Assembly (NCBI GenBank): GCA_965221605.1
Contig: CBDCSK010000014.1
Location: 26,666-90,665 of the forward strand
Length of the DNA stretch: 64,000 nucleotides
Source: Candidatus Aldehydirespirator sp.
Lineage (GTDB): Bacteria; Actinomycetota; Acidimicrobiia; Acidimicrobiales; Aldehydirespiratoraceae
Reading direction: 5' to 3'
Below are positions 4,692 through 43,124 of this stretch, piece by piece. The notes beneath the pieces are model-generated. The model was given only the letters and a program-made list of their open reading frames with translations. It was not told where the DNA came from and searched no databases. The number at the start of each line of letters is the position of its first letter. Position 1 is the stretch's first letter. The position numbers and the translations under genes are program-made.

Positions 4692-5159
4692 ATGTCCGCC
4701 ACCGCCATCGAGGCTGCGGCCGCCATCCACCGGGGCGATGAGGAGTTGCCATGGGCGGACGCCGGCGGCGGCATCGAGCTCAAGGTGATGATGGTGCGCG
4801 AGGACGAGGGGCTGTGGATCCTGCGCAACCGGTTCGCGCCGGGCGTCGTCATCCAGACCCACCGCCACACCGGGCCGGTGTACGCCCACACTCTGAGCGG
4901 GGCCTGGAAGTACCTCGAGTATCCGGAGGTCAACCGGGCCGGGTCGTTCCTGTTCGAGCCGGCCGGGAGCGTCCACACGCTCACCACCCCGGCCGACAAC
5001 ACCGAGCCGACCGATGTCTGGTTCCAGATCCACGGCGTCAACCTCAACCTCGACGCCGACGGCAACGTGGAATCCATCACCGACGGGCCGGGCGTTCTGG
5101 CCGCCTACTACGCCCTCTGCGAGGCCCAGGGTCTGGCACGCCCGAACGTCGTCACATAG
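4692..5159 (+). CDS. Cupin-fold protein, 2,4'-dihydroxyacetophenone dioxygenase-like
   Basis: Cupin His cluster (QTHRHTGPVYAHTLSGAW...FEPAGSVHTL). The family assignment is from memory of this motif pattern. Confidence 0.6.
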   Translation: MSATAIEAAAAIHRGDEELPWADAGGGIELKVMMVREDEGLWILRNRFAPGVVIQTHRHTGPVYAHTLSGAWKYLEYPEVNRAGSFLFEPAGSVHTLTTPADNTEPTDVWFQIHGVNLNLDADGNVESITDGPGVLAAYYALCEAQGLARPNVVT

Positions 5160-5173
5160 AACGCCCGCCGGGG

Positions 5174-6067
5174 CTACAGGCCGAAGGTGCCGTCGAGGCG
5201 GGTCTTCCAGTTGCCCGACGCGATGGTCCCGCCGTCCACCGGGATGGACGTCCCGTTGACGAAGCCGGCCATGTCGGAGGCCAGGAACACGATCACGGCC
5301 GCGCACTCCTCCGCCGCTCCCATTCGCCGTAGCGGTGTGGGGAACGTGCCCTCGATGACGTGGGTCCCGCCCTCGGCGAGAGCCTCGTCGCCGGGTGTGG
5401 GCATCATGTCGGGAGCCACGCAGTTGACCCGGATGCCCCGGTGCCCGTACTCCACCGCCAGGGTCTTGGTGAACTGCTCCACCGCGGCCTTCATGGCCGC
5501 GTAGACCCCGAAGCCGGGGGCGGAGTGATAGGCCTCAACCGAGGTGACGTTGATGATGGCGCCGCCGTCGGACATGAGCGGCACGCCGTGGCGCACGCAG
5601 TTGGTGACGGTTGCGAAGTTCTCCCTGATCAGGGTGTGCTCACCCTTGGGCGACACGTCGGCGAAGCGGGCCTTGAAGGTGCCGCCCGCGTTGTTGACGA
5701 GAACGTCGATGGGGCCGAGTTCGCTATGGACCCGCTGTAGGAACGCAGCCACCGCGTCGTCGTCGCGGGCGTCGAGCACATCCGGCAGGCACCGCCGCCC
5801 GGCCCCCTCCACTCCAGCCACGGTCTCGGGCAGGAGCGTGGGGTCCATGTCGAACACGGCCACATCGGCGCCGAAGCGGGCCAGGGCCGCCGCGGTGGCC
5901 GCGCCGATCCCCCGGCCCGCGCCGGTCACGACCGCTACCCGGTCGGTGAGCAGGATGCTGTCTGGCGAGAGGATGTGCCAGTCCAGTGCGCTCCTACCGT
6001 CGACCGCGGCGGTTGCGTGGTCCGCGGCACCATCGGGGGTGCGCTCCACTGAGCCCGGCACGCTCAT
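5174..6067 (-). CDS. SDR-family oxidoreductase
   Basis: VAVVTGAGRGIG, NNAG, S...YAAMKAA. The chosen start, ATG 6065-6067, overlaps the res stop (ATGA). The upstream 106 codons of ORF 5174..6385 are Arg/Gly-rich and overlap res. Confidence 0.85.
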   Translation of the reverse strand: MSVPGSVERTPDGAADHATAAVDGRSALDWHILSPDSILLTDRVAVVTGAGRGIGAATAAALARFGADVAVFDMDPTLLPETVAGVEGAGRRCLPDVLDARDDDAVAAFLQRVHSELGPIDVLVNNAGGTFKARFADVSPKGEHTLIRENFATVTNCVRHGVPLMSDGGAIINVTSVEAYHSAPGFGVYAAMKAAVEQFTKTLAVEYGHRGIRVNCVAPDMMPTPGDEALAEGGTHVIEGTFPTPLRRMGAAEECAAVIVFLASDMAGFVNGTSIPVDGGTIASGNWKTRLDGTFGL

Positions 6068-8589
6068 GCCAGTAACGATCCGAACTGGTCCTCGCGGAAG
6101 ATGATCCTGAACCGGCCCTTGACCTCGCCGTTGTCGAGGTTGACCTCGCCGCACTCGTAGGCGCCCGTGCCGTTGAGCGAGGCCTCCAGCGTGGCAAAGA
6201 CCTTCGTCTTGTACTCCGTGTCGGGGTTGCCCTCCAGATGTCCGCCCTTGGTCTCGACCACGAGCAGGCGGGGCCTGCCGTCGCCGTTGCTGGACATTGC
6301 CACGAAGTCGGGCCATATGCGGTTCTGGTTCCAGCCTCGCAGGTAGTACTCGTGCTGCTGACGGACAGCGACCCGATGCCACCACTGGATCGCCGCGTGC
6401 TGGTCCACGTAGAAGGCGAAGTCCCTCTCAAGGCCGGTGTCGAACTGTTTCTCGAAGACCGGTTCGAACAGGCTGTTCTGCACCGGCTTGCCGAGCCGCT
6501 GCAGGGAGTGGTCGTTCGCAGCGACGGGCAGCGTGAACTCCTCCTGCATCCTGTAGTTGGGCTCGCTCGCCTCTAGGTCGAATCGGATGTCACCGGCCTT
6601 GAGCTTGCTGGTGAAGACCTGCTCGGCTTGGCGCTCGATCTCGTCCGCCACCCCCTCTCGGAGTCGGATCATCTGGTCGCGCCGCTGGGCGTAGATGTCA
6701 GCCCCGTTCAGTCCCATGCCGCGCAGCGACTCGATGAGGTCGTCGGCGATCCGAGCCGCCTGCCAGGCGTTCGGGACGAGGTCGGTGAGTTGGCGCGTCA
6801 CCCACGACAGCGTGATCTCGGGATCGGCGTCGATCAGCTGGCGGGTGGCGTCCGACACGCCGCTGCCGCCCAGGTCGACGGCGACCGTCTCCTCGAACAG
6901 GCCCGCACTAGCGCCAGTGGCGGCTCCCGGCGAAGGCGCGGTGATGCCGGCCCAGTCGATGTGGGGGAGGATGTGCCGCTGGTAGCTGAGATCGCGCCAG
7001 CCATCGCCGTGGCGGTGAAGGACCTTGGGGAGGAAGACGTCACGCTGCCGGAAGCGCTCGCGCCTTCGGATGGTCGTGACCTCCATATCGACGGCGTCGC
7101 TGCCGACGACATCGCGGTCGAGCCCGGTGAGCCCCTCGTGCTCCAGGCCGCTCTTGACCTGCATGACGGCGTCATCGACCTTGGTCTTCCAGCAGTGGAC
7201 GTAGCACTTGTCGAGGTCGGGCACCCCTGTCCAGCGAGCGTGCGGCTGGCGCATCACCCGGCCCATGAGTTGCGTGATTGCCCTCCTGCTGCTGGTGTTG
7301 TCGAGCATGACAAGGACGTAGGCGAAGGGGCAGTCCCAGCCTTCCATCAGGGCTGCCTTGGTGATTATCCACCGCACCGGCGAGTAGGGCGACAGAAGGT
7401 CGTGTCCCGCTATCTCGTCCTTCTCGGACGACTTGACGCGCACAGCCTCCGGTGCCTCCCCGAGGTGGTTCACCAAGTAGTCGCGCGCGTCCTCGGCGTG
7501 GATGCGGTCACCGCCCATCTGGGCCTGACCGGTCCGCTCGACCCGCACCACGGCGATGGGGCGGATGTAGCGGCCAGAACTTCCTTCGAGCACGATTGCG
7601 GCCGCCTGGAGGTCATTGAGCCTGTCGCAGGCTCGGGCGAGAGTGTCTCGCCACTCGCCGCCGCTGGTGGTGACCTCGACGGGAAGCTTGATCATCTGCT
7701 CCTTCTTGAGGTCCACGCCTGAGATGTCGACAAGCAGGTTGCTGATGTTGCGATTGGGTGTCGCCGTCAACTCGACCACGAGTCTCGGATCGAGCCGGTT
7801 GACGGCCCTAACGAACTCGGTGGCGCCGTTGCCGCCGTAGGCCTTGTGCGCCTCGTCGAGAATGACGACTGGACGCTGCATCTTGAACACGTTGAACAGG
7901 CTCTGCTTGACGGTCCCGTCGTCGTAGCACTCCAGGTCGGGGTTGTCCGCGAGCAGAGAATCGATGGCGGGCCCGTCGTCCTCTTTGGGGAACAGCGTCA
8001 TGTAGCGGCCCGAGTCCCTGAACATCCGCAGGAACTCCTTGCCCTTCTGCCGGTTGGCGGCCGGCAGCATCAGCAGCATGAGGCACAGGTAGTTCTCTAC
8101 GTCGCCGCGATCGATTCGATCCTCCTTCTCGAGCAGCTTGACACGCCCGCCGCTGGCGTGTTCGAGGAGTTGGCGGTAGGGGTGCTCGCGCGATCTGAAG
8201 GCAGCCTTGGTCTGGGCGTAAATGGCCCTCGATGGCACGATCCAGAGAACCAGTCCGGTCTGCATCCCAAGCCTCTCCAAGGCCGCCGCCCCCAGCAGCG
8301 TCTTGCCGCCGCCCGTCGGCACCTTGAAGCAGACGTGGGGGATGGGCCGACCAGCGTCGTCGTAGCGATCCACGTGCTCTCGGGCACCGGACTCGATCGC
8401 GCCATCCTCAACGAGTCGGTCCCAAGCCGCGCACGGGAAACTGCGAATACTCGCCGGGACGTCAAGGCCCGCCTGCTCCAGCGCGGCGATGCCCTCGTCG
8501 GACTTGATGCGAGCGTCGTCGAGCGTCTTCAACCAGCGGACGAACACCTCCAGCGTCCTGTGCTGGTATTCCTTGAGTTCGAGACGCAT
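6064..8589 (-). CDS. res: Type III restriction enzyme, Res subunit (SF2 helicase plus PD-(D/E)xK nuclease)
   Basis: Walker A KVPTGGGKTLLG, DEAH box VILDEAHKA, ELTATP, QLMGRVMRQ, and a C-terminal nuclease motif (PDFVAM...LLVVETKGG). Its start overlaps the mod stop by 1 nt (TGATG). Confidence 0.85.
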   Translation of the reverse strand: MRLELKEYQHRTLEVFVRWLKTLDDARIKSDEGIAALEQAGLDVPASIRSFPCAAWDRLVEDGAIESGAREHVDRYDDAGRPIPHVCFKVPTGGGKTLLGAAALERLGMQTGLVLWIVPSRAIYAQTKAAFRSREHPYRQLLEHASGGRVKLLEKEDRIDRGDVENYLCLMLLMLPAANRQKGKEFLRMFRDSGRYMTLFPKEDDGPAIDSLLADNPDLECYDDGTVKQSLFNVFKMQRPVVILDEAHKAYGGNGATEFVRAVNRLDPRLVVELTATPNRNISNLLVDISGVDLKKEQMIKLPVEVTTSGGEWRDTLARACDRLNDLQAAAIVLEGSSGRYIRPIAVVRVERTGQAQMGGDRIHAEDARDYLVNHLGEAPEAVRVKSSEKDEIAGHDLLSPYSPVRWIITKAALMEGWDCPFAYVLVMLDNTSSRRAITQLMGRVMRQPHARWTGVPDLDKCYVHCWKTKVDDAVMQVKSGLEHEGLTGLDRDVVGSDAVDMEVTTIRRRERFRQRDVFLPKVLHRHGDGWRDLSYQRHILPHIDWAGITAPSPGAATGASAGLFEETVAVDLGGSGVSDATRQLIDADPEITLSWVTRQLTDLVPNAWQAARIADDLIESLRGMGLNGADIYAQRRDQMIRLREGVADEIERQAEQVFTSKLKAGDIRFDLEASEPNYRMQEEFTLPVAANDHSLQRLGKPVQNSLFEPVFEKQFDTGLERDFAFYVDQHAAIQWWHRVAVRQQHEYYLRGWNQNRIWPDFVAMSSNGDGRPRLLVVETKGGHLEGNPDTEYKTKVFATLEASLNGTGAYECGEVNLDNGEVKGRFRIIFREDQFGSLLA

Positions 8590-10322
8590 CAGACCTGCTC
8601 CGACCGCCTGATCTCGAACGGCAGCCCGCCGAACATGATGTTGAGTTCGTTCAGGTCATCGAGCTCGATGTACTTTCCAGCCGCGAACACGACGGCCTGC
8701 TTCCGCTCCTGCCGGCAGATCTCAGCGATATCCTCGGCTCGCCCCTCGGTCAGGACCGCCTCGGTGCTGCGTAGCCAGTCAAGATCGGGCTGGTAGCGCA
8801 GATAGTAGTTGCGGCCCGAATCACTGTAGATCAGGCCGTGCTCGTCCAAGGGACGAAGGTCTGCCGGGCCGACAGACTGCCCTGTGGCGGTGTGCATAAG
8901 CCAGGCAGCGAGTTCCGCGAATTGCGGCAACGTATCGCCGCTGAGCATCCCCGAGGCTGTGACCGGAACACCACGAGTACTAAACGTGAACGATCCACCG
9001 AGCCCCTCGCGTAGTGCCTCATCCCGCGCATCGGGCACGCCCGAGATGACGCGTCGCACTCGCTCAGCCGTCACAGAATCGGCGTAGTCCTCACACTCCA
9101 CGAGGATGAACTTGCGGCTGCCGTCGTCCTGTTTATTCAAGGCCAGAACTGCATGAGCTGTAGTACCAGAACCTGCAAACGAGTCAAGGATGATGTCCTG
9201 ACCAGAGGTGACAATCTCAAGCAACCGCCGAATCACCCGCTCATCCTTCGGATACTCGAACGATGCCTCAGGTAGAATACGGACAAGTTCCTTGTGGGCT
9301 GCTCGCCGATCCTGATAGAATACGCTAGTCAGAACCTGCGAATCGGTCTCATTCAAGTACTTCTTGAGATTGGGCACCCTTGATTCATCTACACCAAAGT
9401 GAACGCGTCCCTGTTCAATCGCTTCCAGCATCTTGTTCCTGTCAGGAAACACCCACCCTCTCGCGGGAACCTTGACAGGTTTGCCAGTGGCAGGATGGAG
9501 TATCTCATAGGTGGGACCTCCTCCACCCGGCCAGGAGATGTCCGCGGCGAAGTAGACACCATTTGTATCGATCCAACGGTAGTGACGATGGGCGTAGGAC
9601 TCATGCTTCTTGTCAAGAGATGCGAACCACCGTTGCAAGTCATCCGATGCGCCAGATGAGTCTCCTTCGTGTTTCTTCCACGCTTCCGAAGCCACTTCGT
9701 TGATTTCGTCGACACCCTCCTTCATGGCGCGCCAGCGTGACTTGTTCTCGCGAATCAGATTCAATTGGCTAGCATAGCACAGAACATAGTCATGACCTAC
9801 GGAGATGAACCGTGCATCATTCTTGCCCGTTCCCTCCCAAACAAACGATCCAACGAAGTTCTCGGCACCGAAGATATCGTCCATTAGCATGCGTAGGTGG
9901 TGCTGTTCGTTGTCGTCGATGGAGACAAAAATCACGCCATCATCTGAGAGGAGTTCCCGCAGCAGTTGCAGGCGGGGCCACATCATTGAGAGCCACTTGT
10001 CATGGCGCTCCAAGTCCTCGCCGTCGATGGGCGCCTCGTCAGCGAACCACTGCTTGAGAATGGGGCCGTTGGCGTTGTCGTTGTAAGACCAGCCCTCGTT
10101 GCCAGTGTTGTAGGGCGGGTCGATGTAGATGCACTTCACCCGTCCGGCGTAGCGGGGCAGCAGGGCCTTGAGGGCGTGCAGGTTGTCGCCCTGAATGATG
10201 AGGTTGTCGTCATCAGGGCAGTCGCCGACGGACTTCTCGGGCTCGGGCACGAGGGGCCTGTAGGGCACCGTCAGGTGGTGCGCGTAAATGTGCCGTTTGC
10301 CCTTGAAATCAAGTGTTGGCAT
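8589..10322 (-). CDS. mod: Type III DNA methyltransferase, Mod subunit (beta-class N6A/N4C MTase)
   Basis: Motif IV (IYIDPPYNTGNEGW) precedes motif I (LDSFAGSGTTAHAV). ATG at 10320-10322 is preceded by GGGAG. The tracked ORF starts 18 nt upstream at a GTG. Confidence 0.85.
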   Translation of the reverse strand: MPTLDFKGKRHIYAHHLTVPYRPLVPEPEKSVGDCPDDDNLIIQGDNLHALKALLPRYAGRVKCIYIDPPYNTGNEGWSYNDNANGPILKQWFADEAPIDGEDLERHDKWLSMMWPRLQLLRELLSDDGVIFVSIDDNEQHHLRMLMDDIFGAENFVGSFVWEGTGKNDARFISVGHDYVLCYASQLNLIRENKSRWRAMKEGVDEINEVASEAWKKHEGDSSGASDDLQRWFASLDKKHESYAHRHYRWIDTNGVYFAADISWPGGGGPTYEILHPATGKPVKVPARGWVFPDRNKMLEAIEQGRVHFGVDESRVPNLKKYLNETDSQVLTSVFYQDRRAAHKELVRILPEASFEYPKDERVIRRLLEIVTSGQDIILDSFAGSGTTAHAVLALNKQDDGSRKFILVECEDYADSVTAERVRRVISGVPDARDEALREGLGGSFTFSTRGVPVTASGMLSGDTLPQFAELAAWLMHTATGQSVGPADLRPLDEHGLIYSDSGRNYYLRYQPDLDWLRSTEAVLTEGRAEDIAEICRQERKQAVVFAAGKYIELDDLNELNIMFGGLPFEIRRSEQV

Positions 10323-10340
10323 CGAAACTCCCTGTCGCAC

Positions 10341-10367
10341 CGCCTGCTGATCGCAACGTAGCAGGCG
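10341..10367 (-). promoter_or_regulatory. GC-rich hairpin between the ATPase stop and the mod start
   Basis: CGCCTGCT (10341-10348) and AGCAGGCG (10360-10367) form a perfect 8-bp stem with an 11-nt loop. There is no U-tract. It lies 19 nt upstream of the mod ATG. Confidence 0.3.
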
Positions 10368-10403
10368 GCTGAGACAAGACCGGGAACCCTCAACGGGAGG
10401 GGG

Positions 10404-12095
10404 TCAGGAGACGGCGGCGACCCCGCTGCGGTGCCGGTACTCCAATAGCGACGACCTTCCCTGCATGGCGATCACCCGCACGTCGGACTGGTTGCCGTAG
10501 GCGTCAACGAGGTGCAGTGGCACCCCGCCGACAGCGAAGCTGACCGGCTGCTGCCGGCCGCCGTCGACCGCGACATTCGTGGTGTAGAGATATGGCCGCT
10601 GTGAGTCGTCCAGAATCGGATTGAGGCGCCCATCGAGACCGGGCACGTAGCCCGTCCCGTCCGCGAAGATCACAGAACCCCCGTCGGCGACAGCCTCCAG
10701 TTGCACTTCGAGCGCCCCCTCGTCAGGCACCCATTCGTTCTCGACCGCCGCGCTGAGGCTGGCCGCCGCGACGAAGACCGTCATTGGAGTGTCGGTCGTG
10801 TACAGCTTGAGTTGCGCCACGCCTGTGCTGTCACTGCTGGCCCGCTGCCAGGTGTTGTTGGGGAAGAGCGCTAGGACATCCGCGCCGGCGACCGGATCGC
10901 CGCGGCATGTGACCCGGATCGAAGTCTCGGCGTCGAACCGGCTCAGAGCCTCGGCGAACTGATCGAGCGGCACGACGTCGCAGGCGTTTCGGGTCTGCGC
11001 CTCCGTGCCTGCGTATACGAGGGTCCTGGCGGCAACGTCCGGCACCGCCTTGGCTACGCGGTCGAACGACTGGAAGAAGCTCGAGACGACGGTTGCACCA
11101 GACTTGGCCTCGATGGCGTTGATGCCCCGCTCCGTCTCATAGAAGAGGTCGCACTCCAAGCCTCGCGAGTCGCGGAAGAACGAGAGCCGGGGATCGACGC
11201 CACGGTTGTAGCCATGCTTGATCGCCTCGCTCACCACGATGTTTTCGAAGAGCTGTCCCCGCAGCGGATGCGTCGCCACCTGCCCGGGGCTCTCGATCCC
11301 GAGCAAGTAGCTGGCGAGACCGACGTCGTGGAAGTAGAGCTTCGGCGACTTCACGAGCCGTTTGCGGATGTTCCTTGCGAATGGCGGCAGCAGGAACACG
11401 ATGTAGCTGCGCTCCAGCACAGTGAGCCACTGGCGAATCGTCGTGCGTGACACCCCGACATCGTCGCTGAGGGAGGTCAGAGACAGCAACTGCCCGACCC
11501 GCCCAGCGCACAGTGCGACGAACTGAGTGAACGCCGGCAGGTTCGCGACGCCGCCCATGCGCCGCACATCGCGCTCGACGTAGGTCTCGAAGTAGTCGCG
11601 CAGTGCTTGACGAGGTTCGAGCCGCTGATCGACGATTCGCGGATAGAAGCCGCTGAAGACGATGTCGCCGAGGGCTTCACCGGCTCCCGTGCGCCGTCGC
11701 TCTGAAAGCGAGAACGGCAGGAGACGCAACTGAGCGACCCGGCCTGCGAGCGACTCGCCCACCTCGGCCGCGAGCGCCAGGTTCTCGCTGCCGGTGAGGA
11801 CGTACAGCCCGTTGCCACCGCTGGCGTCGGCAGCCTCCTTCAGGTAGGCGAGCAGCGACGGAACGTGCTGGATCTCATCGATGACGGCAGGAACGCCGAT
11901 CTCGGCTAGGAAGCCGCGCGGATCGGACTCCGCATACGCACGAACATCGTGGGCATCGAGACTGCGGTAGGCGAGGCTGCTGAAGGCCGCCCGGCATAGC
12001 GTCGTCTTGCCCGCCTGTCGTGGCCCGGTCACGGTCACGAACGGGTACTGTCTGAACAGCTTCGTCAGGCGCCCGGTGATCTCACGCTCGATCAC
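10404..12095 (-). CDS. AAA+ ATPase (COG1373-like, AAA_14 + DUF4143 region) with a ~160-aa extra C-terminal domain
   Basis: Walker A VTGPRQAGKTTL, Walker B PAVIDEIQH, and a D...ExK-like motif (ECDLFYETERGINAIEAKSG). The C-terminal residues ~400-563 are beta-rich and I could not assign them. Confidence 0.75.
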   Translation of the reverse strand: MIEREITGRLTKLFRQYPFVTVTGPRQAGKTTLCRAAFSSLAYRSLDAHDVRAYAESDPRGFLAEIGVPAVIDEIQHVPSLLAYLKEAADASGGNGLYVLTGSENLALAAEVGESLAGRVAQLRLLPFSLSERRRTGAGEALGDIVFSGFYPRIVDQRLEPRQALRDYFETYVERDVRRMGGVANLPAFTQFVALCAGRVGQLLSLTSLSDDVGVSRTTIRQWLTVLERSYIVFLLPPFARNIRKRLVKSPKLYFHDVGLASYLLGIESPGQVATHPLRGQLFENIVVSEAIKHGYNRGVDPRLSFFRDSRGLECDLFYETERGINAIEAKSGATVVSSFFQSFDRVAKAVPDVAARTLVYAGTEAQTRNACDVVPLDQFAEALSRFDAETSIRVTCRGDPVAGADVLALFPNNTWQRASSDSTGVAQLKLYTTDTPMTVFVAAASLSAAVENEWVPDEGALEVQLEAVADGGSVIFADGTGYVPGLDGRLNPILDDSQRPYLYTTNVAVDGGRQQPVSFAVGGVPLHLVDAYGNQSDVRVIAMQGRSSLLEYRHRSGVAAVS

Positions 12096-12108
12096 ATTCT
12101 CACGGTAT

Positions 12109-12139
12109 CACAATCTGAAGTTAATGGTTGCAGATTGTG
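12109..12139. promoter_or_regulatory. Perfect 9-bp inverted repeat in the A/T-rich leader of the AAA+/DUF4143 gene
   Basis: CACAATCTG-N13-CAGATTGTG, located 14-44 bp upstream of the GTG start at 12095. Confidence 0.4.
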
Positions 12140-12234
12140 CACTACTGATCGTTATGTGAGGCAGGACGGAGGCGGGTGTCGCGGGGTGCCCTGAAGTAGG
12201 GTTGCCGGGCCGACAACCAGGAGGGCAGACCGGC

Positions 12235-13011
12235 ATGGGAGAGTTCGTTCGAGTCGAGGCCAGCGGGGGCGTGGCCACCATCCGGATCGACCGGCCCAAG
12301 ATGAACGCCATCAACCCGCAGATGCTCGCGGAGTTGACCGAGGCCGCCCACACCATCGCGGCCGACGGCGACGTGAGGGCCGCGGTGGTGTGGGGAGGGC
12401 CGAGGATCTTCGCGGCCGGGGCCGACATCGGAGGCTTCACCGGCCTCGACGCGGCGGGGGCCCAGGATCTGTCGCGCGTCTTCAACGACGCGTTCCTCGC
12501 GGTGGAGAACATGCCCCAGATCACGGTGTCGGCCGTGAACGGCTACGCGCTCGGCGGCGGCATGGAGCTGGCCATGGCCACCGACTTCAGGGTGGCCGCG
12601 GAGGACGCGGTGTTGGGTCAGCCCGAGATCCGCCTCGGGATCATCCCCGGCGGCGGGGGCACCCAGCGGCTTCCCCGTCTGGTGGGCGTCACCAGAGCAA
12701 AGGAGATCATCTACACGGGCCGCAACGTGCATCCGGACGAGGCCCTCGCCATCGGCCTCGTCTCCGCAGTGCATGCCCCCGAAGAGACCTACAACGCGGC
12801 GGTGGAGATGGCCGCGGGCTACGCCGCGGGACCGGCCGCGCTGCGCATGGCCAAGCAGGCGGTCATGGACGGCCTGGCCCTGTCGCTGGCCGACGCGGTG
12901 GCCTGCGAGACCGAGCAGTTCGGCGCCTGCTTCGACACCGAGGACGCCTCCATCGGCGTGGCCAGCTTCCTGGAGCAGGGCCCCGGCAAAGCCACCTTCA
13001 CCGGCCGCTGA
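12235..13011 (+). CDS. Enoyl-CoA hydratase/isomerase (crotonase) family protein
   Basis: [10 protein letters not shown] and [15 protein letters not shown] oxyanion-hole motifs. ATG 12235 is preceded by AGGAGGG. The tracked ORF starts at TTG 12202. Confidence 0.85.
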
Positions 13012-18093: not shown

Positions 18094-18441
18094 TCAGAGG
18101 TCCAGATGCAACTGCAGGGCGTCGTCGACACGCGTCATGAGATCGACAGGTACTAGGCCGACGGTGCCTCCGACACTCTGCACATCGACCGCTCTGATCT
18201 GCTCGGCCTGTGCCTTGGAGTCCACGGCGAGCCCGGTCTCGGCCGCGGTAAGCAGCACCTGAAACGGGTGGATGAACTCTGTGTTCGAAGTGATCGGGAC
18301 GATTGTCACGACTCCACGCCCCAAGCGCGCCGCTGTGGTGTTGGCGCCGTCGTTGCTGACAATTACCCCCGGACGCGTGCGAGTCGCCTCAGCGCCCAGG
18401 ACAGGGTCCAGCCTGACTACCCGTATCTCACCCCTTCGCAT
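18094..18441 (-). CDS. mazF: MazF/PemK-family type II toxin (endoribonuclease)
   Basis: RRGEIRVVRLDPVLGAEATRTRPGVIVSND signature. Its start overlaps the antitoxin stop by 1 nt. Confidence 0.85.
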   Translation of the reverse strand: MRRGEIRVVRLDPVLGAEATRTRPGVIVSNDGANTTAARLGRGVVTIVPITSNTEFIHPFQVLLTAAETGLAVDSKAQAEQIRAVDVQSVGGTVGLVPVDLMTRVDDALQLHLDL

Positions 18442-18665
18442 TAGTCCTCGGCCAACCCGTCACCGACAACTGCGTCCCAGACCTTGTCCTCGCCGCTGTC
18501 TTCCCACTCTGCGAAGGCTTGCGCGTAGTGCTGTGACAGTTCGGAGGCCCGGAGGAGTCGTATCGCCCTGTGCAGGGTGGCCGACCGCGAGGCGATGCCG
18601 TGGGATCGCGCGTATTCGTCCAGGAACTCGACGTCGCTCTCGGGAATGCTCACACTGACCTTCAT
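18441..18665 (-). CDS. Ribbon-helix-helix (CopG/MazE9-like) antitoxin
   Basis: 74 aa, with an MKVSVSIPESDVEFLDEYA beta-strand/helix start and an acidic C-terminus. It lies directly upstream of mazF. Confidence 0.75.
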   Translation of the reverse strand: MKVSVSIPESDVEFLDEYARSHGIASRSATLHRAIRLLRASELSQHYAQAFAEWEDSGEDKVWDAVVGDGLAED

Positions 18666-18787: not shown

Positions 18788-19009
18788 GTGACCGACATTC
18801 TCATTCGTGACGTTCCCGACGACGTGGTCGCGGCTATCGAGGCCAACGCCAGGAAGGCCGGCCTGTCGAGAGCCGAGTACCTGCGGAGGACGCTTGAGCG
18901 GGAACGCGCCGACCCTGCCGGCGAAGTGACCGTGGAGTCTCTCCGGCGCTTCAAAGAGACCTTCGCAGACCTGGCTGACCCCGACGTGATGCGGTCGGCC
19001 TGGTCATGA
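18788..19009 (+). CDS. vapB: VapB-type (RHH, FitA-like) antitoxin
   Basis: [34 protein letters not shown] is a typical RHH antitoxin N-terminus. There is a 4-bp ATGA overlap with vapC. Confidence 0.8.
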
Positions 19010-19422
19010 CCGCCTGGCTGATCGACAAATCAGCCCTGGTACGGCTCGACTCGAGTCCCGACGCCGCGGAGTGGGCATCGAGAATCCAACGCGGGCTGGT
19101 CCGTATCTCCACGGTTACCCGGCTGGAGACCGGGTTCTCGGCCCGCTCAGCCGAGGACCTCCGGCGCAGCTTCGCCGGACCGCCGCTCAGCGCCATGCCC
19201 GTCGAGTACCTCACCCCCGCCATAGAGGACCGTGCGCTCACGGTGCAACTTGCCTTGGCGCAGGTGGGCCACCACCGAGCGCCCTCGGTCCCCGATCTTC
19301 TGATCGCCGCGACCGCCGAAGGCGCTGGGCTGACCGTCCTGCACTTTGACAAGGACTTCCGACTCATTGCCGACGTCACCGGCCAGCCGCTAGAGCGTCT
19401 GGTCGTCCCCGACGATCCGTAA
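19006..19422 (+). CDS. vapC: VapC-type PIN-domain toxin
   Basis: PIN acidic residues in LIDKSAL, ...TRLE..., [10 protein letters not shown] and HFDKDF. Confidence 0.85.
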
Positions 19423-30827: not shown

Positions 30828-31550
30828 TCAGTCCTCCAGTGATTCGACACCCAGGTAGCTGGCGTCGAGCAGGGCACGGTCGGCCAGCAGGTCCGAGGCG
30901 GCTCCCTGCATCACCAGGTCGCCGTGGTTGAGCACGTAGCCCCGGTCGGACACCTCCAGGGCCAGGTCCACATGCTGTTCCACCAGCAGCACCCCGGCGC
31001 CGGTCTCATCGGCGATGCGGCGCACCACCGGCATCAGCTCCTCGTAGATGACGGGGGCCAGGCCCAGGCTCATCTCGTCGACCATCATCAGCTTGGGCTC
31101 GGCCACGATGGCCCGGCCGAGGACAAGCATCTGCTGCTCGCCGCCGCTGAGCAGCCCGCCCCGGCGGTTCATCAACGGGCCGAGGGCGGGGAAGAAGTCG
31201 ACGGCCCGGTCGATGTCGACCTTGCCGCTGGTCTTGGCCAGCTGGAGGTTCTCGCGCACGGTCAGCTGGTACAACAGGCCCCGGTTCTCAGGCACGTGGA
31301 TCACGCCCCAGCGGGCCACCCGGTGGGCCTGGCGCAGCCGCGGCACCGGCCGGCCCATGATGGCCACCGAGCCGTTCAGGATCTGGCCCATGCCCGAGAT
31401 CGTCATCAATGTGGTGGTCTTGCCCGCACCGTTGGGACCCAGCAAGGCCACCACCTCGCCCGCGTCGAGGTGCAGGCTCAGGCCGCGAACCACGGCCACG
31501 CCGTCGTAGCCGGTGTCGAGGTTCTCGATGGTCAGGAGACGCTCGCTCAT
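30828..31550 (-). CDS. livF: Branched-chain amino-acid ABC transporter ATP-binding protein (LivF-type)
   Basis: GPNGAGKTTT, LSGGEQQMLVLGRA, MVDEMSLGLAP. Confidence 0.85.
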   Translation of the reverse strand: MSERLLTIENLDTGYDGVAVVRGLSLHLDAGEVVALLGPNGAGKTTTLMTISGMGQILNGSVAIMGRPVPRLRQAHRVARWGVIHVPENRGLLYQLTVRENLQLAKTSGKVDIDRAVDFFPALGPLMNRRGGLLSGGEQQMLVLGRAIVAEPKLMMVDEMSLGLAPVIYEELMPVVRRIADETGAGVLLVEQHVDLALEVSDRGYVLNHGDLVMQGAASDLLADRALLDASYLGVESLED

Positions 31551-32308
31551 GACTCGGCCCCGCTATGGCCCAGGTAGGCCGCGATGACCTCTGGATCGTT
31601 GCGCATCTCGTCCGGGGTACCCGAGGCCGTCAACTGGCCGAACACCAGCATGTGGATGTAGTCGCACACGTTGAGCACCAGACCCATGTCGTGGTCTACC
31701 AGCAGCATGGTGTAGCCCTGATCCACAAGGTGCCTCAGCTGGGTGCCGAACCATTCGGTCTCGGCTTTGTCGAGACCGGCCGCGGGCTCGTCCAGCAGCA
31801 GGATCTTGGACGACTCCGCCACCAGGGCCCGCCCGACTCCCACCAGCTTGCGCTGCCCCTGGGACAGCTCGCGGGGCTGGCGCTCGGCGATGTCGCCCAG
31901 ATTGAGCAGGTCGAGCACCTCGTCGACGCGGTCGGCGCGCTGGCGGGGCCGCCAGTAGTCGAGCAGCGCGGAGCCCATCGTGAGGCGGCGGCTGGCCACG
32001 TCGAGGTTGGATCGCACCGTGATGTCGTCGAAGAGCTCGAGCGTCTGCCAGGTGCGGGTGAGTCCGTCGTGGGACAGCACATGGGGCGAGCGTCCGAAGA
32101 CCTCCTCGCCTTCGAGAAGCACCGACCCCACCGAGTTGTTGGGCAGGAAGCCGGTGATGGCATCGATGAAGGTGGTCTTGCCCGCCCCGTTGGGACCGAT
32201 CAGTCCGGTCAGCCGGCCCCGGCGGCACTCCAGCGACACCTCGTTGACGGCCAGCAGGCCGCCGAAGCGCACTGTGAGCCCGCTGGTGGCGAGAACGGTG
32301 TCAGACAT
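31547..32308 (-). CDS. livG: Branched-chain amino-acid ABC transporter ATP-binding protein (LivG-type)
   Basis: GPNGAGKTTF, LSQGQRKLVGVGRAL, LLDEPAAGL. Confidence 0.85.
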   Translation of the reverse strand: MSDTVLATSGLTVRFGGLLAVNEVSLECRRGRLTGLIGPNGAGKTTFIDAITGFLPNNSVGSVLLEGEEVFGRSPHVLSHDGLTRTWQTLELFDDITVRSNLDVASRRLTMGSALLDYWRPRQRADRVDEVLDLLNLGDIAERQPRELSQGQRKLVGVGRALVAESSKILLLDEPAAGLDKAETEWFGTQLRHLVDQGYTMLLVDHDMGLVLNVCDYIHMLVFGQLTASGTPDEMRNDPEVIAAYLGHSGAES

Positions 32309-34448: not shown

Positions 34449-34533
34449 AAGGCCCCCTGCTGAGACGAGCCTAGCCGGGCCCTCGATGGGGCCCGGCTCG
34501 ACTCGACCTCAATGAGCGTGGGGGTGCGGCGGG

Positions 34534-35932
34534 TCAGCCCAGCAGGAAGTTGAGCTCCGAGAAGTCCAGGAAGGTGAACCCGTCGGGAGCCGTCATCTGC
34601 CCGCCCGCGATGGTGACCATCAACGGAGAGGTGTTGCAGGCACCGAGCCACGGATCCGGGCCCGGGCAACTCAAATCGGGGAAGCCGGGAACATCGCTGC
34701 TGGAGTAGGTGCTGAGCGCGGCCAGCACAGACTCGGTGGTTGCGTCGGCGCCGCCGCCTGCGATGAGCAGGTCCCTGGCGATGACCGCTTGACCCAGCGC
34801 CCAGCCGCCGAGGCCGGCAGCCTGCACGCCCGCGCCGCCGTAGGTGTCCAGCACACGGTTGATCTCGTCGATCTCCGCGCCCCCGTCGACCGTGGGAGCG
34901 CTCGACACGATCGGGCCGGCCCAGCCGTCCAGCTCGCCCGACTCGACAAGATCCTGGCTCAGGCACAGATCGTTGCCGAAGAGGTGGCCCTCGTATCCGA
35001 CCGTCTCCACGCCATTGGCAGCCGCGGTGCACTGAGCGCCGTCGGCCAGGACGAACAGCCAGCCCTCGTTGCCGGTGTCGGCCGCGGACACCGGCCCGGT
35101 CAGGTCAGGCTCGAACCCCAGATAGATGGTCTCGGTGATCGTGATCCCGTTGCTCTCGCCGATGGCGTACAGCGCCGGTTCGAACGGTGCGATGGCCGGG
35201 TCGTCGGCCAGGAACAGCGACATGGTGGAGACATCGCGCTGATTCTTGGCGAACACGAAGAAGACCTGGGCCAGGCCGGGCAGACCGGGATCGAAGTTGT
35301 AGAGGTTGGGGGTGAGGTAGTCGATGAAGTCGTTGCCCAGTCCGAGGTTCGCCTTGCCGGCCTCGGCCAGGATGGTGCCCGACGCGATGCTGTTGGACAG
35401 GAAGCCGCTGTTGATGACCACGTGGATGTCGTCGGCGTTCACGAACTCGTTGGCGCAGGCAATGTGGGACTCCACCGCGTCGCCCGCACCGCAGACCTCC
35501 AACTCGATGGGGTGCCCGTTCACGCCGCCCAGCTCGGCGTTGAAGTAGTCGACGTAGGCCTGTACCACCGCGGGCACCTCGGGGAACGCCATGAGCTCCT
35601 CGACCTGGGCGATCAGCCCGATCTTGACCGGCTCCATCGACTCGTCGGCCATCATGGAATCGGACTCCTCCATGGGCTCCTCGGCCGGCTCCTCCCATGG
35701 GCTCCTCAGCGGGCTCCTCCATAGGCTCCTCCATGGACTCCTCGGCCGGCTCCTCCATGGGCTCCTCAGCGGGCTCCTCCATGGGCTCCTCGGCCGGTTC
35801 CTCCGCAGGCGCCGCCGGTGCAGGCTCATCCACGGCAGGAGCGTCATCCTCGTCGTCGCCGCAGGCCGCGGCGACGAGGGCGAAAGCAAGCAGGACTGCA
35901 GCCAGCACCCTCCAGCTGGACTTGGGACTCAT
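34534..35932 (-). pseudogene. Liv-type amino-acid-binding lipoprotein, frameshifted as sequenced
   Basis: AAGGAGG precedes ATG 35930-35932. The signal peptide and lipobox (MSPKSSWRVLAAVLLAFALVAAAC) and the acidic repeats are in one frame. The mature binding domain (ORF 34534..35889) is in another. The frames switch at ATGGGAGGAG, which is CCC 34694+1000 on the plus strand (35694-35696), where the other repeat copies read ATGGAGGAG. Confidence 0.8.
35665..35803 (-). repeat. In-gene tandem repeats encoding an acidic (E-E-P-A/M) linker
   Basis: Encodes EEPAEEPMEEPAEEPMEEPAEESMEEPMEEPAEEPM(E)EPAEEPMEE. The DNA shows near-identical 24-bp units (GAGGAGCCCATGGAGGAGCCCGCT...). Confidence 0.85.
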
Positions 35933-36100
35933 GGTGTGTTCCTCCTTCGCGCCAGGGCACGCGTGTTGTCGGGAGACTTTGATACCCGGATTGTACATAT
36001 GTTGGCAAGTCAGGTCTGGAAGCGCTAGTTCTGTCTGCTCAACCGTGAGGCCAGCCATAGATTCTGTGCCGAATCGGACTAGCAACCTGCGCTTCCTAGA

Positions 36101-37084: not shown

Positions 37085-37091
37085 CCAGCGC

Positions 37092-38761: not shown

Positions 38762-38892
38762 GAGCTAACACTAGTCATTGAAACTCGCGCCGTCTGCGGG
38801 ATGCAGATATGGAATCACAGGCGTACGACGTGATACACAAGCGTTTCCTACCCTAGAGTGTCGCCGTCGGCGGCTCACAGAGGAGCAAGAGG

Positions 38893-40008: not shown

Positions 40009-40010
40009 AC

Positions 40011-40973: not shown

Positions 40974-40974
40974 T

Positions 40975-42150: not shown

Positions 42151-42298
42151 TCGCCGAACCCGGAATCGGGACCACCACGGTGTGCACCCAGAAGGCTCCG
42201 GGACTCTCAGGGCAAAGTAAGGGAAATCCCCGGTTGGGGAGGGTCGGGCCGGTCGTAGAGTCCCGCCTGAGCCTTCCCGCCAGCGCTTAGGAGAACCT

Positions 42299-43048: not shown

Positions 43049-43051
43049 CCG

Positions 43052-43075: not shown

Positions 43076-43124
43076 GGCCCGCCACCCGGCCCCACCCTCC
43101 AACACTCCCGAAGAGGATCCCGAC

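What the first reader, a model, noticed from the sequence alone, without database searches (positions are those of the whole stretch)
10404..12095. Over-long AAA+/DUF4143 ATPase with a nuclease-like motif and an unassigned C-terminal domain, co-oriented directly upstream of Type III mod-res
Residues 1-400 look like the widespread COG1373 ATPase: Walker A GPRQAGKTT, Walker B VIDEIQ, then ECDLF...AIEAKSG, a D...ExK pattern compatible with a restriction-endonuclease-like fold. Typical family members end there. This one continues for about 160 aa of beta-rich sequence (IRVTCRGDPVAGADVLALFPNN...GTGYVPGLDGRLNPILDD...VRVIAMQGRSSLLEYR) that I cannot place. It lies 81 bp upstream of mod on the same strand and has its own palindromic leader. 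It could be a third, NTPase-nuclease component working with the R-M system, or an independent defence gene in the same islet. This is my leading candidate for an undescribed system in the window.
Basis: partly seen in the sequence, partly recalled or inferred. Interest (0 to 1): 0.7.

Follow-up and report, generated by a model that had tools for sequence, protein, structure and literature searches.

The report
Stand-alone ATPase-nuclease with uncatalogued binding tail
This gene is a self-contained member of a very common but unproven candidate anti-phage family, not a third part of the neighbouring restriction system, and its extra 180-residue tail belongs to a large, uncatalogued family of beta-domain modules that other bacteria attach to many classic immune "killer" domains.

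Summary
The ORF is real: 10404-12095, minus strand, 563 aa. Residues 1-380 are a complete PDC-S01/COG1373 protein (AAA_14 ATPase, wHTH, PD-(D/E)xK nuclease). PDC-S01 is a catalogued but unvalidated defence candidate.

The Type III mod-res link is incidental. Sister genomes keep the ATPase intact in the same chromosomal slot, while the R-M cassette there is truncated, a relic or absent. Paralogous copies in other slots lack it too.

The "palindromic leader" is a conserved dyad. It sits on the promoter of a probably leaderless gene and travels with the gene, so it is most likely an auto-operator.

The tail is the interesting part. It models confidently (pLDDT 95) as a transthyretin-like sandwich plus a highly conserved ~95-aa beta domain. 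The second domain has no match in Pfam, NCBIfam, PADLOC, PDB or BFVD.

The tail family has at least 864 clusters at 50% identity. It is fused elsewhere to TIR, SEFIR, caspase, trypsin, Lit-like peptidase, kinase, PIN, Fic, Schlafen-ATPase or 2-TM heads. About 14% of members look exported.

Best reading: the tail is an add-on ligand/target-recognition module on a stand-alone ATPase-nuclease. The ligand and the defence function are unproven.

The parts
10404..12095 (-). Complete CDS, 563 aa: PDC-S01-type ATPase-wHTH-nuclease core plus a two-domain beta tail
   Evidence: ORF list. Pfam and PADLOC matches. 42 full-length homolog clusters at 62-100% identity.
11700..12044 (-). AAA_14 P-loop ATPase domain (res 18-132). 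Walker A GPRQAGKTT lies at 12000-12026 (K30). Walker B VIDEIQ lies at 11868-11885 (D73, E74).
   Evidence: Pfam PF13173, E 1.4e-23. Motifs conserved in divergent paralogs.
11388..11501 (-). Winged-HTH region (res ~199-236, GVSRTTIRQWLTVLERSY) inside DUF4143
   Evidence: Weak GntR HTH hit at residues 199-234 and PADLOC mad1 HTH hit at 201-224. Conserved across paralogs.
11097..11576 (-). DUF4143 (res 174-333). The PD-(D/E)xK nuclease motif (E284, D316, E329-x-K331) lies at 11103-11246.
   Evidence: Pfam PF13635, E 3.6e-46. Translation. Conservation. DUF4143 is listed as a PD-(D/E)XK family in PMC3424549.
10698..10931 (-). Tail subdomain 1 (res ~389-466): transthyretin-like / CarboxypepD_reg-like beta sandwich
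   Evidence: AF2 model m4f5ce9ed8093, pLDDT 95.4. Foldseek local matches to 5aq0 (TMt 0.80, rmsd 2.7) and 9hfj (TMt 0.76, rmsd 2.7). PF13620 hits in 33 of 82 relatives.
10428..10697 (-). Tail subdomain 2 (res ~467-556): highly conserved ~95-aa beta domain with no database match. The signature TGYVPGLDGRLNPILDDSQRPYLYTTN lies at 10575-10655.
   Evidence: AF2 model m49729aeb45a1, pLDDT 90.5. Foldseek: PDB best E 0.13 with TM <= 0.30; BFVD best E 0.058. PDB profile search found nothing. Invariant G/N/P/R/D/Y columns. Translation.
12109..12139 (.). Dyad-symmetric operator-like element CACAATCTG-N13-CAGATTGTG, at -14 to -44 relative to the start codon
   Evidence: the repeat finder. Unique in the window with 0 expected. 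Recognisable upstream of 19 of 21 ATPase-tail orthologs, including those at unrelated loci (the exceptions are L034, degenerate, and L067, which has its own palindrome), and in 0 of the other loci held at that point.
12102..12107 (-). -10-like hexamer TACCGT (TAnnnT), exactly 6 nt before the GTG start. This implies a leaderless transcript.
   Evidence: TAnnnT at -12..-7 in 15 of the 17 sequences scored, and shifted by 1 nt in the other two. Same spacing seen in L002, L004 and L088.
10340..10368 (-). GC-rich hairpin (CCGCCUGCU...AGCAGGCGG) in the 81-nt ATPase-to-mod spacer, with no U tract
   Evidence: RNA fold -39 kcal/mol, z -2.4. The 3' part of the spacer and the RBS are conserved in L001, where they precede adh_short instead of mod.
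8589..10322 (-). Type III mod. A neighbour, not part of the unit.
   Evidence: PADLOC MTase_III, E 1.5e-163; Pfam N6_N4_Mtase.
6064..8589 (-). Type III res. A neighbour, not part of the unit.
   Evidence: PADLOC REase_III, E 7.7e-194; Pfam ResIII.
5973..10319 (.). Presence/absence block carrying mod-res (4.35 kb, GC 0.52-0.65 against 0.69-0.72 in the flanks)
   Evidence: blastn synteny with L001, L007, L008 and L009. Composition profile.

Best explanation
The gene is an autonomous, single-gene unit. It encodes a COG1373/PDC-S01-type protein: an AAA+ ATPase, a winged HTH and a PD-(D/E)xK nuclease. A two-domain beta tail has been added to its C-terminus.

Shown:
- The core is complete and its catalytic motifs are intact.
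- The gene carries its own conserved dyad element directly over the -35/spacer region of a TAnnnT promoter. That promoter is placed for a leaderless mRNA.
- The gene persists under purifying selection whether or not the adjacent Type III R-M is present.
- The tail is optional within the clade. Relatives carry tail A, an unrelated tail B, or no tail.
- The tail belongs to a large family of modules attached elsewhere to immune-type effector heads.

Inferred:
- The protein represses its own promoter through its wHTH.
- The ATPase-nuclease acts on foreign nucleic acid.
- The tail is a recognition module. Its invariant Gly/Arg/Asn/Asp/Tyr cluster in subdomain 2 would bind a conserved ligand or target, and that binding would gate or direct the ATPase-nuclease. 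This parallels the role of C-terminal sensor domains in single-chain defence proteins.
- The R-M cassette is an independent tenant of the same intergenic slot.
For: Core identity.

Independence from the R-M:
- The synteny series runs from intact to truncated to relic to absent.
- GC drops across mod-res.
- No Mod or Res homolog lies within +/-8 kb in the other 19 ATPase-tail loci.
- Four of four contig look-ups show solitary genes among housekeeping genes.

Selection: dN/dS is 0.07-0.21 for the core and 0.11-0.33 for the tail.

Operator and leaderless promoter:
- A different allele at the same slot (L088) carries a different palindrome at the same position.
- Recognition-helix variants track operator variants (IRQW/IREW with TGCACAATCTG; VRHW with GTGCAATCTGAAA; IRNW with TTGCAATACGCAAC).

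Tail as a module:
- At least 864 50%-identity clusters; 557 genomic stretches; 563 proteins.
- Partners are TIR_2, TIR, ThsB-like TIR, CAP12-type TIR, SEFIR, Peptidase_C14, Trypsin_2, M48/U49, Pkinase, PIN_8, PIN_12, Fic, SLFN_AlbA_2-HATPase_c_4, AAA_14-DUF4143 and 2-TM segments.
- All PADLOC hits fall in those heads and never in the tail.
- Tail-less forms are nested among tailed ones on the core tree.
- L004 (tailed) and L088 (tail-less) are alleles in 96-98% identical flanks.
- On a Sinorhizobium plasmid, a TIR-tail gene lies among other TIR genes, an AbiEii toxin and a UvrD helicase.
Against: - PDC-S01 has no experimental validation. The one representative tested gave no protection against T4, T5 or T7 in E. 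coli (bioRxiv 10.1101/2024.09.26.614923).
- Most ATPase-tail copies sit among housekeeping genes in long-conserved slots rather than in obvious defence islands.
- About 14% of non-fragment tail proteins have a signal peptide or anchor (trypsin, M48/U49, dockerin, a caspase), often with 2-3 tail copies. The tail is therefore a general binding module, not exclusively a cytoplasmic immune sensor.
- The very high conservation of subdomain 2 across phyla is unlike sensors that track variable phage proteins.
- Auto-repression rests on position, co-travel and a few co-varying alleles only.
Confidence: 0.6

Rival explanations
1. Three-component Type III R-M. The ATPase-nuclease works with Mod and Res as an accessory motor or nuclease and is co-transcribed with them.
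For: Same strand and only 81 nt upstream of mod. No canonical terminator was detected in the spacer. An R-M cassette or its remnants occur after the ATPase in three related sequences: the window, L008 and L007.
Against: The R-M is decaying or absent in L001, L007, L008 and L009, while the ATPase is intact and constrained. No R-M lies next to the gene in any other slot. The spacer and RBS preceding mod here precede adh_short in L001. GC content marks mod-res as a separate acquisition. Mod and Res match full-length canonical two-gene Type III models.
Confidence: 0.04
2. Not a defence gene. On this reading it is a resident ATP-dependent DNA-binding regulator or a genome-maintenance or selfish 'addiction-like' gene of the COG1373 family. 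The tail would sense a cellular metabolite.
For: Long-conserved chromosomal slots among housekeeping genes (miaA|gene|dapF; ETF/UDG|gene; DAO-GCV_T|gene|DAO-GCV_T). An autoregulatory-looking operator. One PDC-S01 member gave a negative phage test. Subdomain 2 is extremely conserved, as expected for an invariant small-molecule ligand.
Against: The catalytic nuclease and ATPase motifs are conserved. Alleles are replaced within 96-98% identical flanks, and the tail varies between present, absent and swapped, which is typical of conflict genes. PDC-S01 paralogs cluster near one another (12 loci). The tail keeps company with TIR, caspase, Lit-like, PIN and Schlafen heads.
Confidence: 0.2
3. The tail is a host- or matrix-binding (adhesin/lectin-like) module of sponge symbionts, in the sense of eukaryote-like proteins. 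Tail-bearing proteins would act on the sponge host rather than on phages.
For: The top 80 genomic hits come from sponge-symbiont lineages across at least 10 phyla at 49-60% identity, implying exchange within that habitat. Subdomain 1 is an Ig/transthyretin-like fold common in surface proteins. Some members carry signal peptides or dockerin. TIR and SEFIR are also host-signalling folds. Sponge symbionts are enriched in eukaryote-like proteins (PMC11706023).
Against: The window protein and about 77% of non-fragment members have no export signal and have cytoplasmic heads such as AAA+ nuclease, Schlafen-ATPase, Fic and PIN. The 2-TM forms place the tail in the cytoplasm by the positive-inside rule (sequences). 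Members also occur in a soil Sinorhizobium plasmid defence island and in Chitinophagaceae. The habitat signal may reflect ranking by similarity to a sponge-symbiont query.
Confidence: 0.08
4. The tail is an assembly or oligomerisation domain, or an autoinhibitory plug, rather than a ligand sensor. It would only bring effector heads together.
For: It is fused to heads that act as oligomers (TIR, caspase, 2-TM, AAA+). Extra subdomain-2 copies and tandem tails occur in some proteins. The tail is acidic (pI 4.5) next to a basic core (pI 8.3), which is compatible with intramolecular masking of the DNA-binding surface.
Against: An invariant polar/glycine cluster (G, R, N, P, D, R, Y, Y, N) looks more like a pocket than an interface. 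Exported protease fusions suggest target binding. No multimer modelling was possible.
Confidence: 0.12

Closest known systems
PDC-S01 (PADLOC phage-defence candidate; COG1373; Pfam AAA_14 + DUF4143)
   Same: Residues 1-380 align end-to-end with model PDLC04790 (E 1e-92). The protein has a P-loop ATPase, a wHTH and a PD-(D/E)xK nuclease, and it is a single-gene unit (PMC12988326).
   Different: It carries about 180 extra C-terminal residues that none of the seven matching PDC-S01 models, nor any other PADLOC model, aligns to. The family itself is unvalidated, and one tested member was inactive against T4, T5 and T7.
Single-chain 'effector + C-terminal sensor' defence proteins (for example bSEFIR, ThsB-type TIR proteins, SpbK, CapRel-like and DSR2-like logic; the last two are named from general knowledge)
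   Same: In relatives of the tail, validated-type heads (bSEFIR profile positions 36-190 of 412; ThsB, PDC-S66 and SpbK TIR domains) are followed by this tail where their own C-terminal region would be. That is the architecture of a variable effector plus a shared recognition domain.
   Different: No trigger is known. The tail is far more conserved than typical phage-protein sensors, and some members are exported.
Transthyretin-like / carboxypeptidase regulatory-like domain (Pfam PF13620; PDB 5aq0, 9hfj)
   Same: Tail subdomain 1 superposes at rmsd 2.7 A with TMt 0.76-0.80. 33 of 82 relatives reach PF13620.
   Different: The window sequence itself gives no PF13620 hit at E <= 0.1. The fold explains only the first half of the tail.
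Type III restriction-modification (EcoP1I/EcoP15I-type Mod + Res)
   Same: Adjacent and co-oriented here. Mod and Res are canonical and full length.
   Different: Type III systems are two-gene systems. Synteny shows the ATPase is not linked to them.
Schlafen/AlbA_2-HATPase_c_4 modules of Argonaute-associated (Aga 'PNTD1-PNTD2') proteins
   Same: The commonest host of the tail (54 of 59 non-ATPase loci) is this module. It matches the PADLOC Aga and pAgo models in the head region. Like PDC-S01, it is an NTPase-type nucleic-acid-directed head.
   Different: It is a different protein family from the window's core, and no Argonaute lies nearby.

Membership tests
PDC-S01 / COG1373 (AAA_14-DUF4143) | P-loop AAA_14 domain with intact Walker A and Walker B | tested here: met
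   PF13173, E 1.4e-23. GPRQAGKTT and VIDEIQ are conserved across paralogs.
PDC-S01 / COG1373 (AAA_14-DUF4143) | DUF4143 with a wHTH and a PD-(D/E)xK motif | tested here: met
   PF13635, E 3.6e-46, covering profile positions 1-160 of 160. E284, D316 and E329xK331 are conserved.
PDC-S01 / COG1373 (AAA_14-DUF4143) | Near full-length match to a PADLOC PDC-S01 model | tested here: met
   PDLC04790, E 1e-92, profile positions 11-417 of 422.
PDC-S01 / COG1373 (AAA_14-DUF4143) | Single-gene organisation with no obligate partner | tested here: met
   No conserved neighbour across 84 loci. Solitary.
PDC-S01 / COG1373 (AAA_14-DUF4143) | Anti-phage activity | not testable with these tools
   Only literature is available. 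The family is unvalidated (PMC12988326), and one member was negative against T4, T5 and T7.
Accessory subunit of a Type III R-M system | Conserved co-occurrence with mod and res among relatives | tested here: not met
   R-M is intact only in the window, truncated in L008, a relic in L007, absent in L001 and L009, and absent from all other slots.
Accessory subunit of a Type III R-M system | Co-transcription or physical interaction with Mod/Res | not testable with these tools
   The spacer has a GC hairpin without a U tract. The consensus scans found nothing either way.
CarboxypepD_reg / transthyretin-like fold (tail subdomain 1) | Pfam PF13620 match above threshold in this protein | tested here: not met
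   No PF13620 hit for the window tail at E <= 0.1, although 33 of 82 relatives hit it.
CarboxypepD_reg / transthyretin-like fold (tail subdomain 1) | Structural superposition on solved members | tested here: met
   5aq0 with TMt 0.80 and rmsd 2.7; 9hfj with TMt 0.76 and rmsd 2.7.
Uncatalogued 'GRLNPILD' tail family (defined here) | Sandwich plus conserved beta domain with the signature G-T-G-x-x-P-G-x-x-G-R-L-N-P-I-L-D ... R-x-Y-x-Y-x-x-N ... D-x-x-G ... G-x-S-S-L-x-E-Y | tested here: met
   The window tail carries all invariant and near-invariant columns. Profile hits reach E down to 1e-116.
Uncatalogued 'GRLNPILD' tail family (defined here) | Any existing database model or solved structure for subdomain 2 | tested here: not met
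   Nothing in Pfam, NCBIfam or PADLOC. Nothing in the PDB sequence profile search. Foldseek best E was 0.13 in PDB and 0.058 in BFVD. AlphaFold DB was not available.

The most novel reading that the evidence does not exclude
The tail, and especially its ~95-aa subdomain 2, is a previously unrecognised trigger-recognition domain with a fold that has no solved relative. It would bind one conserved invader- or damage-derived ligand and couple that signal to at least a dozen effector chemistries: PDC-S01 ATPase-nuclease, Schlafen-ATPase, TIR, SEFIR, caspase, trypsin, Lit-like peptidase, kinase, PIN, Fic and 2-TM pore. It would have been exchanged horizontally as a shared sensor toolkit, notably among sponge-microbiome bacteria of many phyla. 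In the window gene it would give the first handle on what activates the very abundant but functionally opaque PDC-S01 family.
Probability: 0.35. Interest if true: 0.78.

Novelty: new variant of a known kind. Interest (0 to 1): 0.58.

Why it matters
PDC-S01/COG1373 is reported as the fourth most common defence-candidate family in prokaryotes, yet it has no known trigger, mechanism or validated phenotype. Three features found here are experimentally tractable handles on that family:
- a clade in which the same core carries tail A, tail B or no tail;
- allele swaps inside near-identical flanks;
- a co-travelling operator.

Separately, the tail defines a large uncatalogued domain family. It has at least 864 clusters at 50% identity and 557 genomic stretches among 185,579 species genomes. 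It marks hundreds of TIR, SEFIR, caspase, Schlafen, Lit-like and other proteins as sharing one recognition module. Finding its ligand would explain all of them at once.

The finding also corrects an attractive but wrong inference, namely that adjacency to an R-M system implies a joint system.

Tried and rejected
- **Whole-tail Foldseek hits.** Matches to teneurin, the SlaB S-layer protein and DUF3823 (E 4e-4 to 1e-3) were rejected. Their rmsd is 13-19 A over more than 200 columns. Only the ~85-residue transthyretin-like matches are geometrically sound.
- **Beta-propeller idea.** Residues 471-512 gave weak phmmer matches to designed 'Cake' and 'Scone' beta-propellers (E 0.01-0.75). This suggested that subdomain 2 might be two propeller blades. 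It was rejected because Foldseek of subdomain 2 finds no propeller.
- **APAZ/Argonaute link.** PADLOC hits to Aga_SIR2-PNTD and pAgo models for tail-family proteins suggested such a link. Per-protein scans show that the hits lie in the Schlafen-HATPase_c_4 head, not in the tail.
- **Second-messenger receptor idea** (Cap15-, STING- or SAVED-like). No cyclase or other conserved partner gene lies near tail genes.
- **Known RNA leader.** Rfam gave nothing above noise.
- **Promoter and terminator consensus scans.** The sigma-70 scan and the intrinsic-terminator scan found nothing informative in this high-GC DNA.
- **Viral origin or anti-defence mimic.** There were no matches in IMG/VR or in INPHARED phages.
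- **Exact-protein contig look-up for P0001** failed. Cluster look-up gave no names.
- **Literature.** Searches for DUF4143, PDC-S01, HATPase_c_4/AlbA_2 and the symbiont genera found no description of the tail.
- **Tail B** of the sister clade has no Pfam hit and was not pursued.
Full report
**1. Observation**

It has a GTG start and encodes 563 aa.
- Pfam finds AAA_14 at residues 18-132 and DUF4143 at residues 174-333.
- The PADLOC model PDC-S01 (PDLC04790) aligns residues 1-380 to profile positions 11-417 of 422, with E 1e-92.
- Walker A (GPRQAGKTT, K30), Walker B (VIDEIQ), a sensor-1-like LTGS, a wHTH (GVSRTTIRQWLTVLERSY) and nuclease residues E284, D316 and E329-x-K331 are conserved. This holds even in a 44%-identical Rhodothermales homolog and in a more distant paralog.
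- The last ~180 residues match nothing in Pfam, PADLOC or NCBIfam.
- Mod (8589-10322) and Res (6064-8589) follow on the same strand and are canonical full-length Type III genes. The spacer is exactly 81 nt.
- The upstream inverted repeat CACAATCTG-N13-CAGATTGTG lies at 12109-12139 and is unique in the window.

**2. The gene is independent of the R-M system**

The 86%-identical ortholog P0004 (locus L001) lies in the same slot, between enoyl-CoA hydratase and a short-chain dehydrogenase.
- DNA alignment shows that window 10320-13011 and 4710-5972 are collinear with L001. The 4.35-kb block 5973-10319 is missing there.
- The leader and RBS that precede the mod ATG in the window precede the dehydrogenase ATG in L001.
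- The same slot in other Acidimicrobiia MAGs shows every intermediate. L008 keeps only res codons 181-841 (86% identity) and has no mod. L007 keeps a 43-codon res relic. L009 has nothing.
- The mod-res block has lower GC (0.52-0.65) than its flanks (0.69-0.72).
- The ATPase-tail gene is intact in all of these sequences. Against the window, dN/dS is 0.07-0.21 for the core and 0.11-0.33 for the two tail subdomains. One exception, 0.65 against L007, rests on very few substitutions.
- Copies in other chromosomal slots have no Mod or Res homolog within 8 kb: miaA|gene|dapF, UDG|gene, DAO-GCV_T|gene|DAO-GCV_T, and others.
- A PADLOC scan of 70 flanking proteins from ten loci found four extra PDC-S01 paralogs and scattered, mostly generic hits. 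No Type III genes appeared among the listed families.

The three-component R-M idea is therefore not supported. The R-M cassette is a separate tenant of the slot and is being lost in sister lineages.

**3. Transcription signals**

The dyad TGCACAATCTG-N(7-17)-CAGATTGTGCA is recognisable upstream of 19 of 21 ATPase-tail orthologs, including those at unrelated loci. The exceptions are L034, where it is degenerate, and L067, which has its own palindrome. It is found nowhere else in the other loci held at that point.
- A TAnnnT hexamer lies exactly 6 nt before the start codon in 15 of the 17 sequences scored, and is shifted by 1 nt in the other two. This leaves no room for a Shine-Dalgarno sequence. 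By general knowledge, it is the usual actinobacterial arrangement for a leaderless mRNA.
- In the window the hexamer is TACCGT at 12102-12107, and the dyad spans -14 to -44. The "palindromic leader" is thus more likely a promoter-overlapping operator than a transcribed leader.
- L004 carries the tailed form and L088 the tail-less form at one slot. Their flanks are 98.4% and 96.5% identical, but their genes are only 79% identical. Each allele has its own palindrome at the same position; in L088 it is TTGCAATACGCAAC-N5-GTTGCGTATTGCA.
- Recognition-helix variants of the wHTH track the operator variants.
- No regulator gene co-travels with the unit. Autoregulation by the protein's own wHTH is therefore the most economical inference, but it is not shown.
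- The ATPase-to-mod spacer holds a GC hairpin at 10340-10368 (-39 kcal/mol, z -2.4) without a U tract. Co-transcription with mod cannot be settled in silico. Rfam finds nothing.

**4. The tail**

With a 31-sequence alignment, AlphaFold2 models the last 178 residues at pLDDT 95.4 and pTM 0.89 as two all-beta subdomains.
- Subdomain 1 (residues ~389-466) superposes on transthyretin-like / carboxypeptidase-regulatory sandwiches: 5aq0 and 9hfj, rmsd 2.7 A, TMt 0.76-0.80.
- Subdomain 2 (residues ~467-556) was modelled alone at pLDDT 90.5. It has no significant neighbour in the PDB (best E 0.13, TM <= 0.30) or in BFVD (best E 0.058). A PDB sequence-profile search also found nothing.
- Subdomain 2 carries the most conserved sequence of the whole protein: TGYVPGLDGRLNPILDDSQRPYLYTTN at 10575-10655. 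G, R, N, P, D, R, Y and N columns are invariant or nearly so across phyla.
- The tail is acidic (pI 4.5) and the core is basic (pI 8.3).

**5. The tail is a mobile module with a telling set of partners**

An exhaustive profile search finds 864 representatives at 50% identity with E <= 1e-3, and 565 with E <= 1e-10. A scan of one genome per species finds 557 confirmed stretches. A third search finds 563 proteins, and every name given by a source is "hypothetical protein".

Pfam partners of tail-bearing proteins:
- CarboxypepD_reg, which is the tail's own first half;
- SLFN_AlbA_2 plus HATPase_c_4;
- TIR_2, TIR, ThsB_TIR and CAP12-type TIR;
- SEFIR and DUF4062;
- Peptidase_C14, Trypsin_2 and Peptidase_M48 with Peptidase_U49 (Lit-like);
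- Pkinase, PIN_8, PIN_12 and Fic;
- AAA_14-DUF4143.

PADLOC hits in these proteins always fall in the head and never in the tail. The heads matched are PDC-S66, ThsB, SpbK, bSEFIR, caspase, the PD-T4-6 and mad6 kinases, RT-protease-type trypsin, the Aga/pAgo PNTD module and PDC-S01.

Further observations on the family:
- Among the 80 best genomic loci, 17 hosts are AAA_14-DUF4143. Sixteen are Acidimicrobiia and one is Rhodothermales, with a core only 44% identical. Of the 59 other hosts scanned, 54 are Schlafen-HATPase_c_4 proteins.
- The module is usually C-terminal. Some proteins carry an extra subdomain 2 or two to three tandem tails.
- One MAG can hold several tail genes with different heads, for example L007 with L055 and L056, or L008 with L079.
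- The 80 best loci come from at least ten phyla whose names are typical sponge-symbiont lineages, at 49-60% tail identity. The window's relatives belong to the Aldehydirespiratoraceae and Poriferisodalaceae. These families have sponge-symbiotic clades reported as enriched in defence genes (PMC11706023).
- This habitat signal may partly reflect ranking by similarity to the query. Members also occur in Chitinophagaceae. Another lies on a Sinorhizobium chiapasense plasmid, where a 734-aa TIR-tail gene sits among other TIR genes, an AbiEii toxin gene and a UvrD helicase gene.
- No phage or viral contig carries the module.

**6. A caveat that limits the "immune sensor" reading**

I classified 168 non-fragment tail proteins with a simple hydrophobicity heuristic.
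- 129 have soluble heads with no hydrophobic N-terminus.
- 24 have signal-peptide- or anchor-like N-termini. These are trypsin, M48/U49, dockerin and one caspase, often with two or three tails. P0319, for example, has a textbook signal peptide.
- 9 have two or more N-terminal TM segments.
- 6 have a C-terminal TM segment.

The safe statement is that the tail is a recognition or binding module used mostly in cytoplasmic conflict-type proteins but also in exported proteases. The ligand is unknown.

**7. Variation within the ATPase clade**

Of the 120 closest relatives, 42 carry this tail and 31 carry an unrelated ~180-aa "tail B" with no Pfam match. A further 46 have no tail, and one carries a frameshifted tail B. 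Tail-less forms are nested inside both tailed clades on a core tree. The tail is therefore an optional accessory to a core that is complete without it. This fits an input or specificity module better than an essential catalytic part.

**8. What is known about the core**

DUF4143/COG1373 is listed as a PD-(D/E)XK family of unknown function (PMC3424549). PDC-S01 is described as the fourth most common defence candidate in prokaryotes, an ATPase fused to a PD-(D/E)XK domain, with validation pending (PMC12988326). The one representative tested in E. coli gave no protection against T7, T5 or T4 (bioRxiv 10.1101/2024.09.26.614923). No solved structure matches the core by sequence.

**9. Most likely mechanism**

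Shown:
- The core is intact and complete.
- The gene has its own promoter and operator.
- The gene is independent of the R-M.
- The tail is optional and modular, and it keeps effector-type company.

Inferred:
- The protein binds its own operator through the wHTH and keeps its expression low.
- The AAA+ module drives DNA engagement, and the PD-(D/E)xK domain cleaves foreign nucleic acid.
- Tail subdomain 2 binds a conserved ligand or target and gates or directs this activity.

Confidence by claim:
- about 0.9 that the gene is not an R-M component;
- about 0.75 that the dyad is a promoter operator;
- about 0.5 that the tail is a ligand or target recognition module controlling the head;
- about 0.5-0.6 that the biological role is defence against mobile elements.

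**10. Novelty and verdict**

The core is an already catalogued candidate, and the R-M association is incidental. The new element is the tail. It belongs to a large domain family absent from Pfam (2025 copy), NCBIfam, PADLOC v2, PDB and BFVD. Its second half has no detectable structural relative, and its fusion partners read like a catalogue of prokaryotic immune effectors. I rate the finding as a new variant of a known kind, of moderate to good interest.

Noticed in passing
window 18094-18665 (-) and 18788-19422 (+): Two type II toxin-antitoxin pairs lie about 6 kb from the ATPase. One is a PemK/MazF toxin with an RHH antitoxin. The other is a FitA-like RHH antitoxin with a PIN (VapC-like) toxin. 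Together with the R-M and the PDC-S01 gene they form a loose defence/addiction neighbourhood, interrupted by ABC-transporter genes.
   Followed up: partly
L008:8588-10954 and L007:8597-8725: These are decaying remnants of the same Type III res gene, directly after the orthologous ATPase. L008 has res residues 181-841 with no mod. L007 has a 43-codon C-terminal relic. Together they give a natural time series of R-M loss at one slot.
   Followed up: yes
P0050, P0052, P0069 and 28 other relatives; locus L087:6001-7749: A sister clade of the same ATPase core (65-70% identical) carries a different ~180-aa C-terminal domain, 'tail B'. It begins VAAFVSERKG...DAAYLGHIRPTL and has no Pfam match. It may be a second uncatalogued accessory module. 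Its locus has HicB, PIN and MazE genes nearby.
   Followed up: partly
L004:10001-11692 versus L088:6001-7188: Two genomes with 96-98% identical flanks hold alleles of the ATPase that are only 79% identical. One allele has the tail and one lacks it, and each has a different upstream palindrome. This looks like cassette replacement by recombination in conserved flanks.
   Followed up: partly
L024, L043, L050, L061, L072, L074, L081, L085 (for example L050:2391-4964): In eight loci from different phyla, the Schlafen-HATPase_c_4-tail gene lies next to an ~857-aa N6_Mtase/Eco57I-like (Type IIG-like) gene. This suggests a horizontally transferred two-gene block.
   Followed up: partly
window 10428-10697 versus L007: Between the window and L007, synonymous divergence of tail subdomain 2 is only 0.08, against 0.47 in the core of the same gene. 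This hints at a recent recombination tract covering the 3' end of the gene and the slot junction.
   Followed up: no
P0151, P0153, P0154, P0152, P0156, P0319 and others: Some family members carry an extra stand-alone copy of subdomain 2 or two to three tandem tails. These are mostly signal-peptide-bearing trypsin or M48/Lit-like peptidases. Subdomain 2 therefore behaves as an independent repeatable unit.
   Followed up: partly
L089 (Sinorhizobium chiapasense ITTG S70 plasmid pSchITTGS70c, record 30926-47390): This plasmid region from a cultured strain holds five annotated TIR-domain genes. One of them is a 734-aa TIR-tail protein (WP_331375610.1). An AbiEii toxin gene, a UvrD-like helicase gene and a DUF429 gene lie in the same region. 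It is a tractable entry point for experiments on the tail.
   Followed up: partly
window 9000-10000: GC falls to 0.52-0.55 within the central part of mod, against about 0.70 for the genome. This is the strongest compositional anomaly in the region. I assume, without checking, that this part encodes the target-recognition region.
   Followed up: no
L013:10861-12201 and 11 other loci: A second, divergent AAA_14-DUF4143 paralog (~446 aa, no tail) lies within 4 kb of the tail-bearing gene in 12 of 84 loci. The tail-bearing gene is either an ATPase-tail or a Schlafen-tail type. Members of this family tend to cluster.
   Followed up: partly
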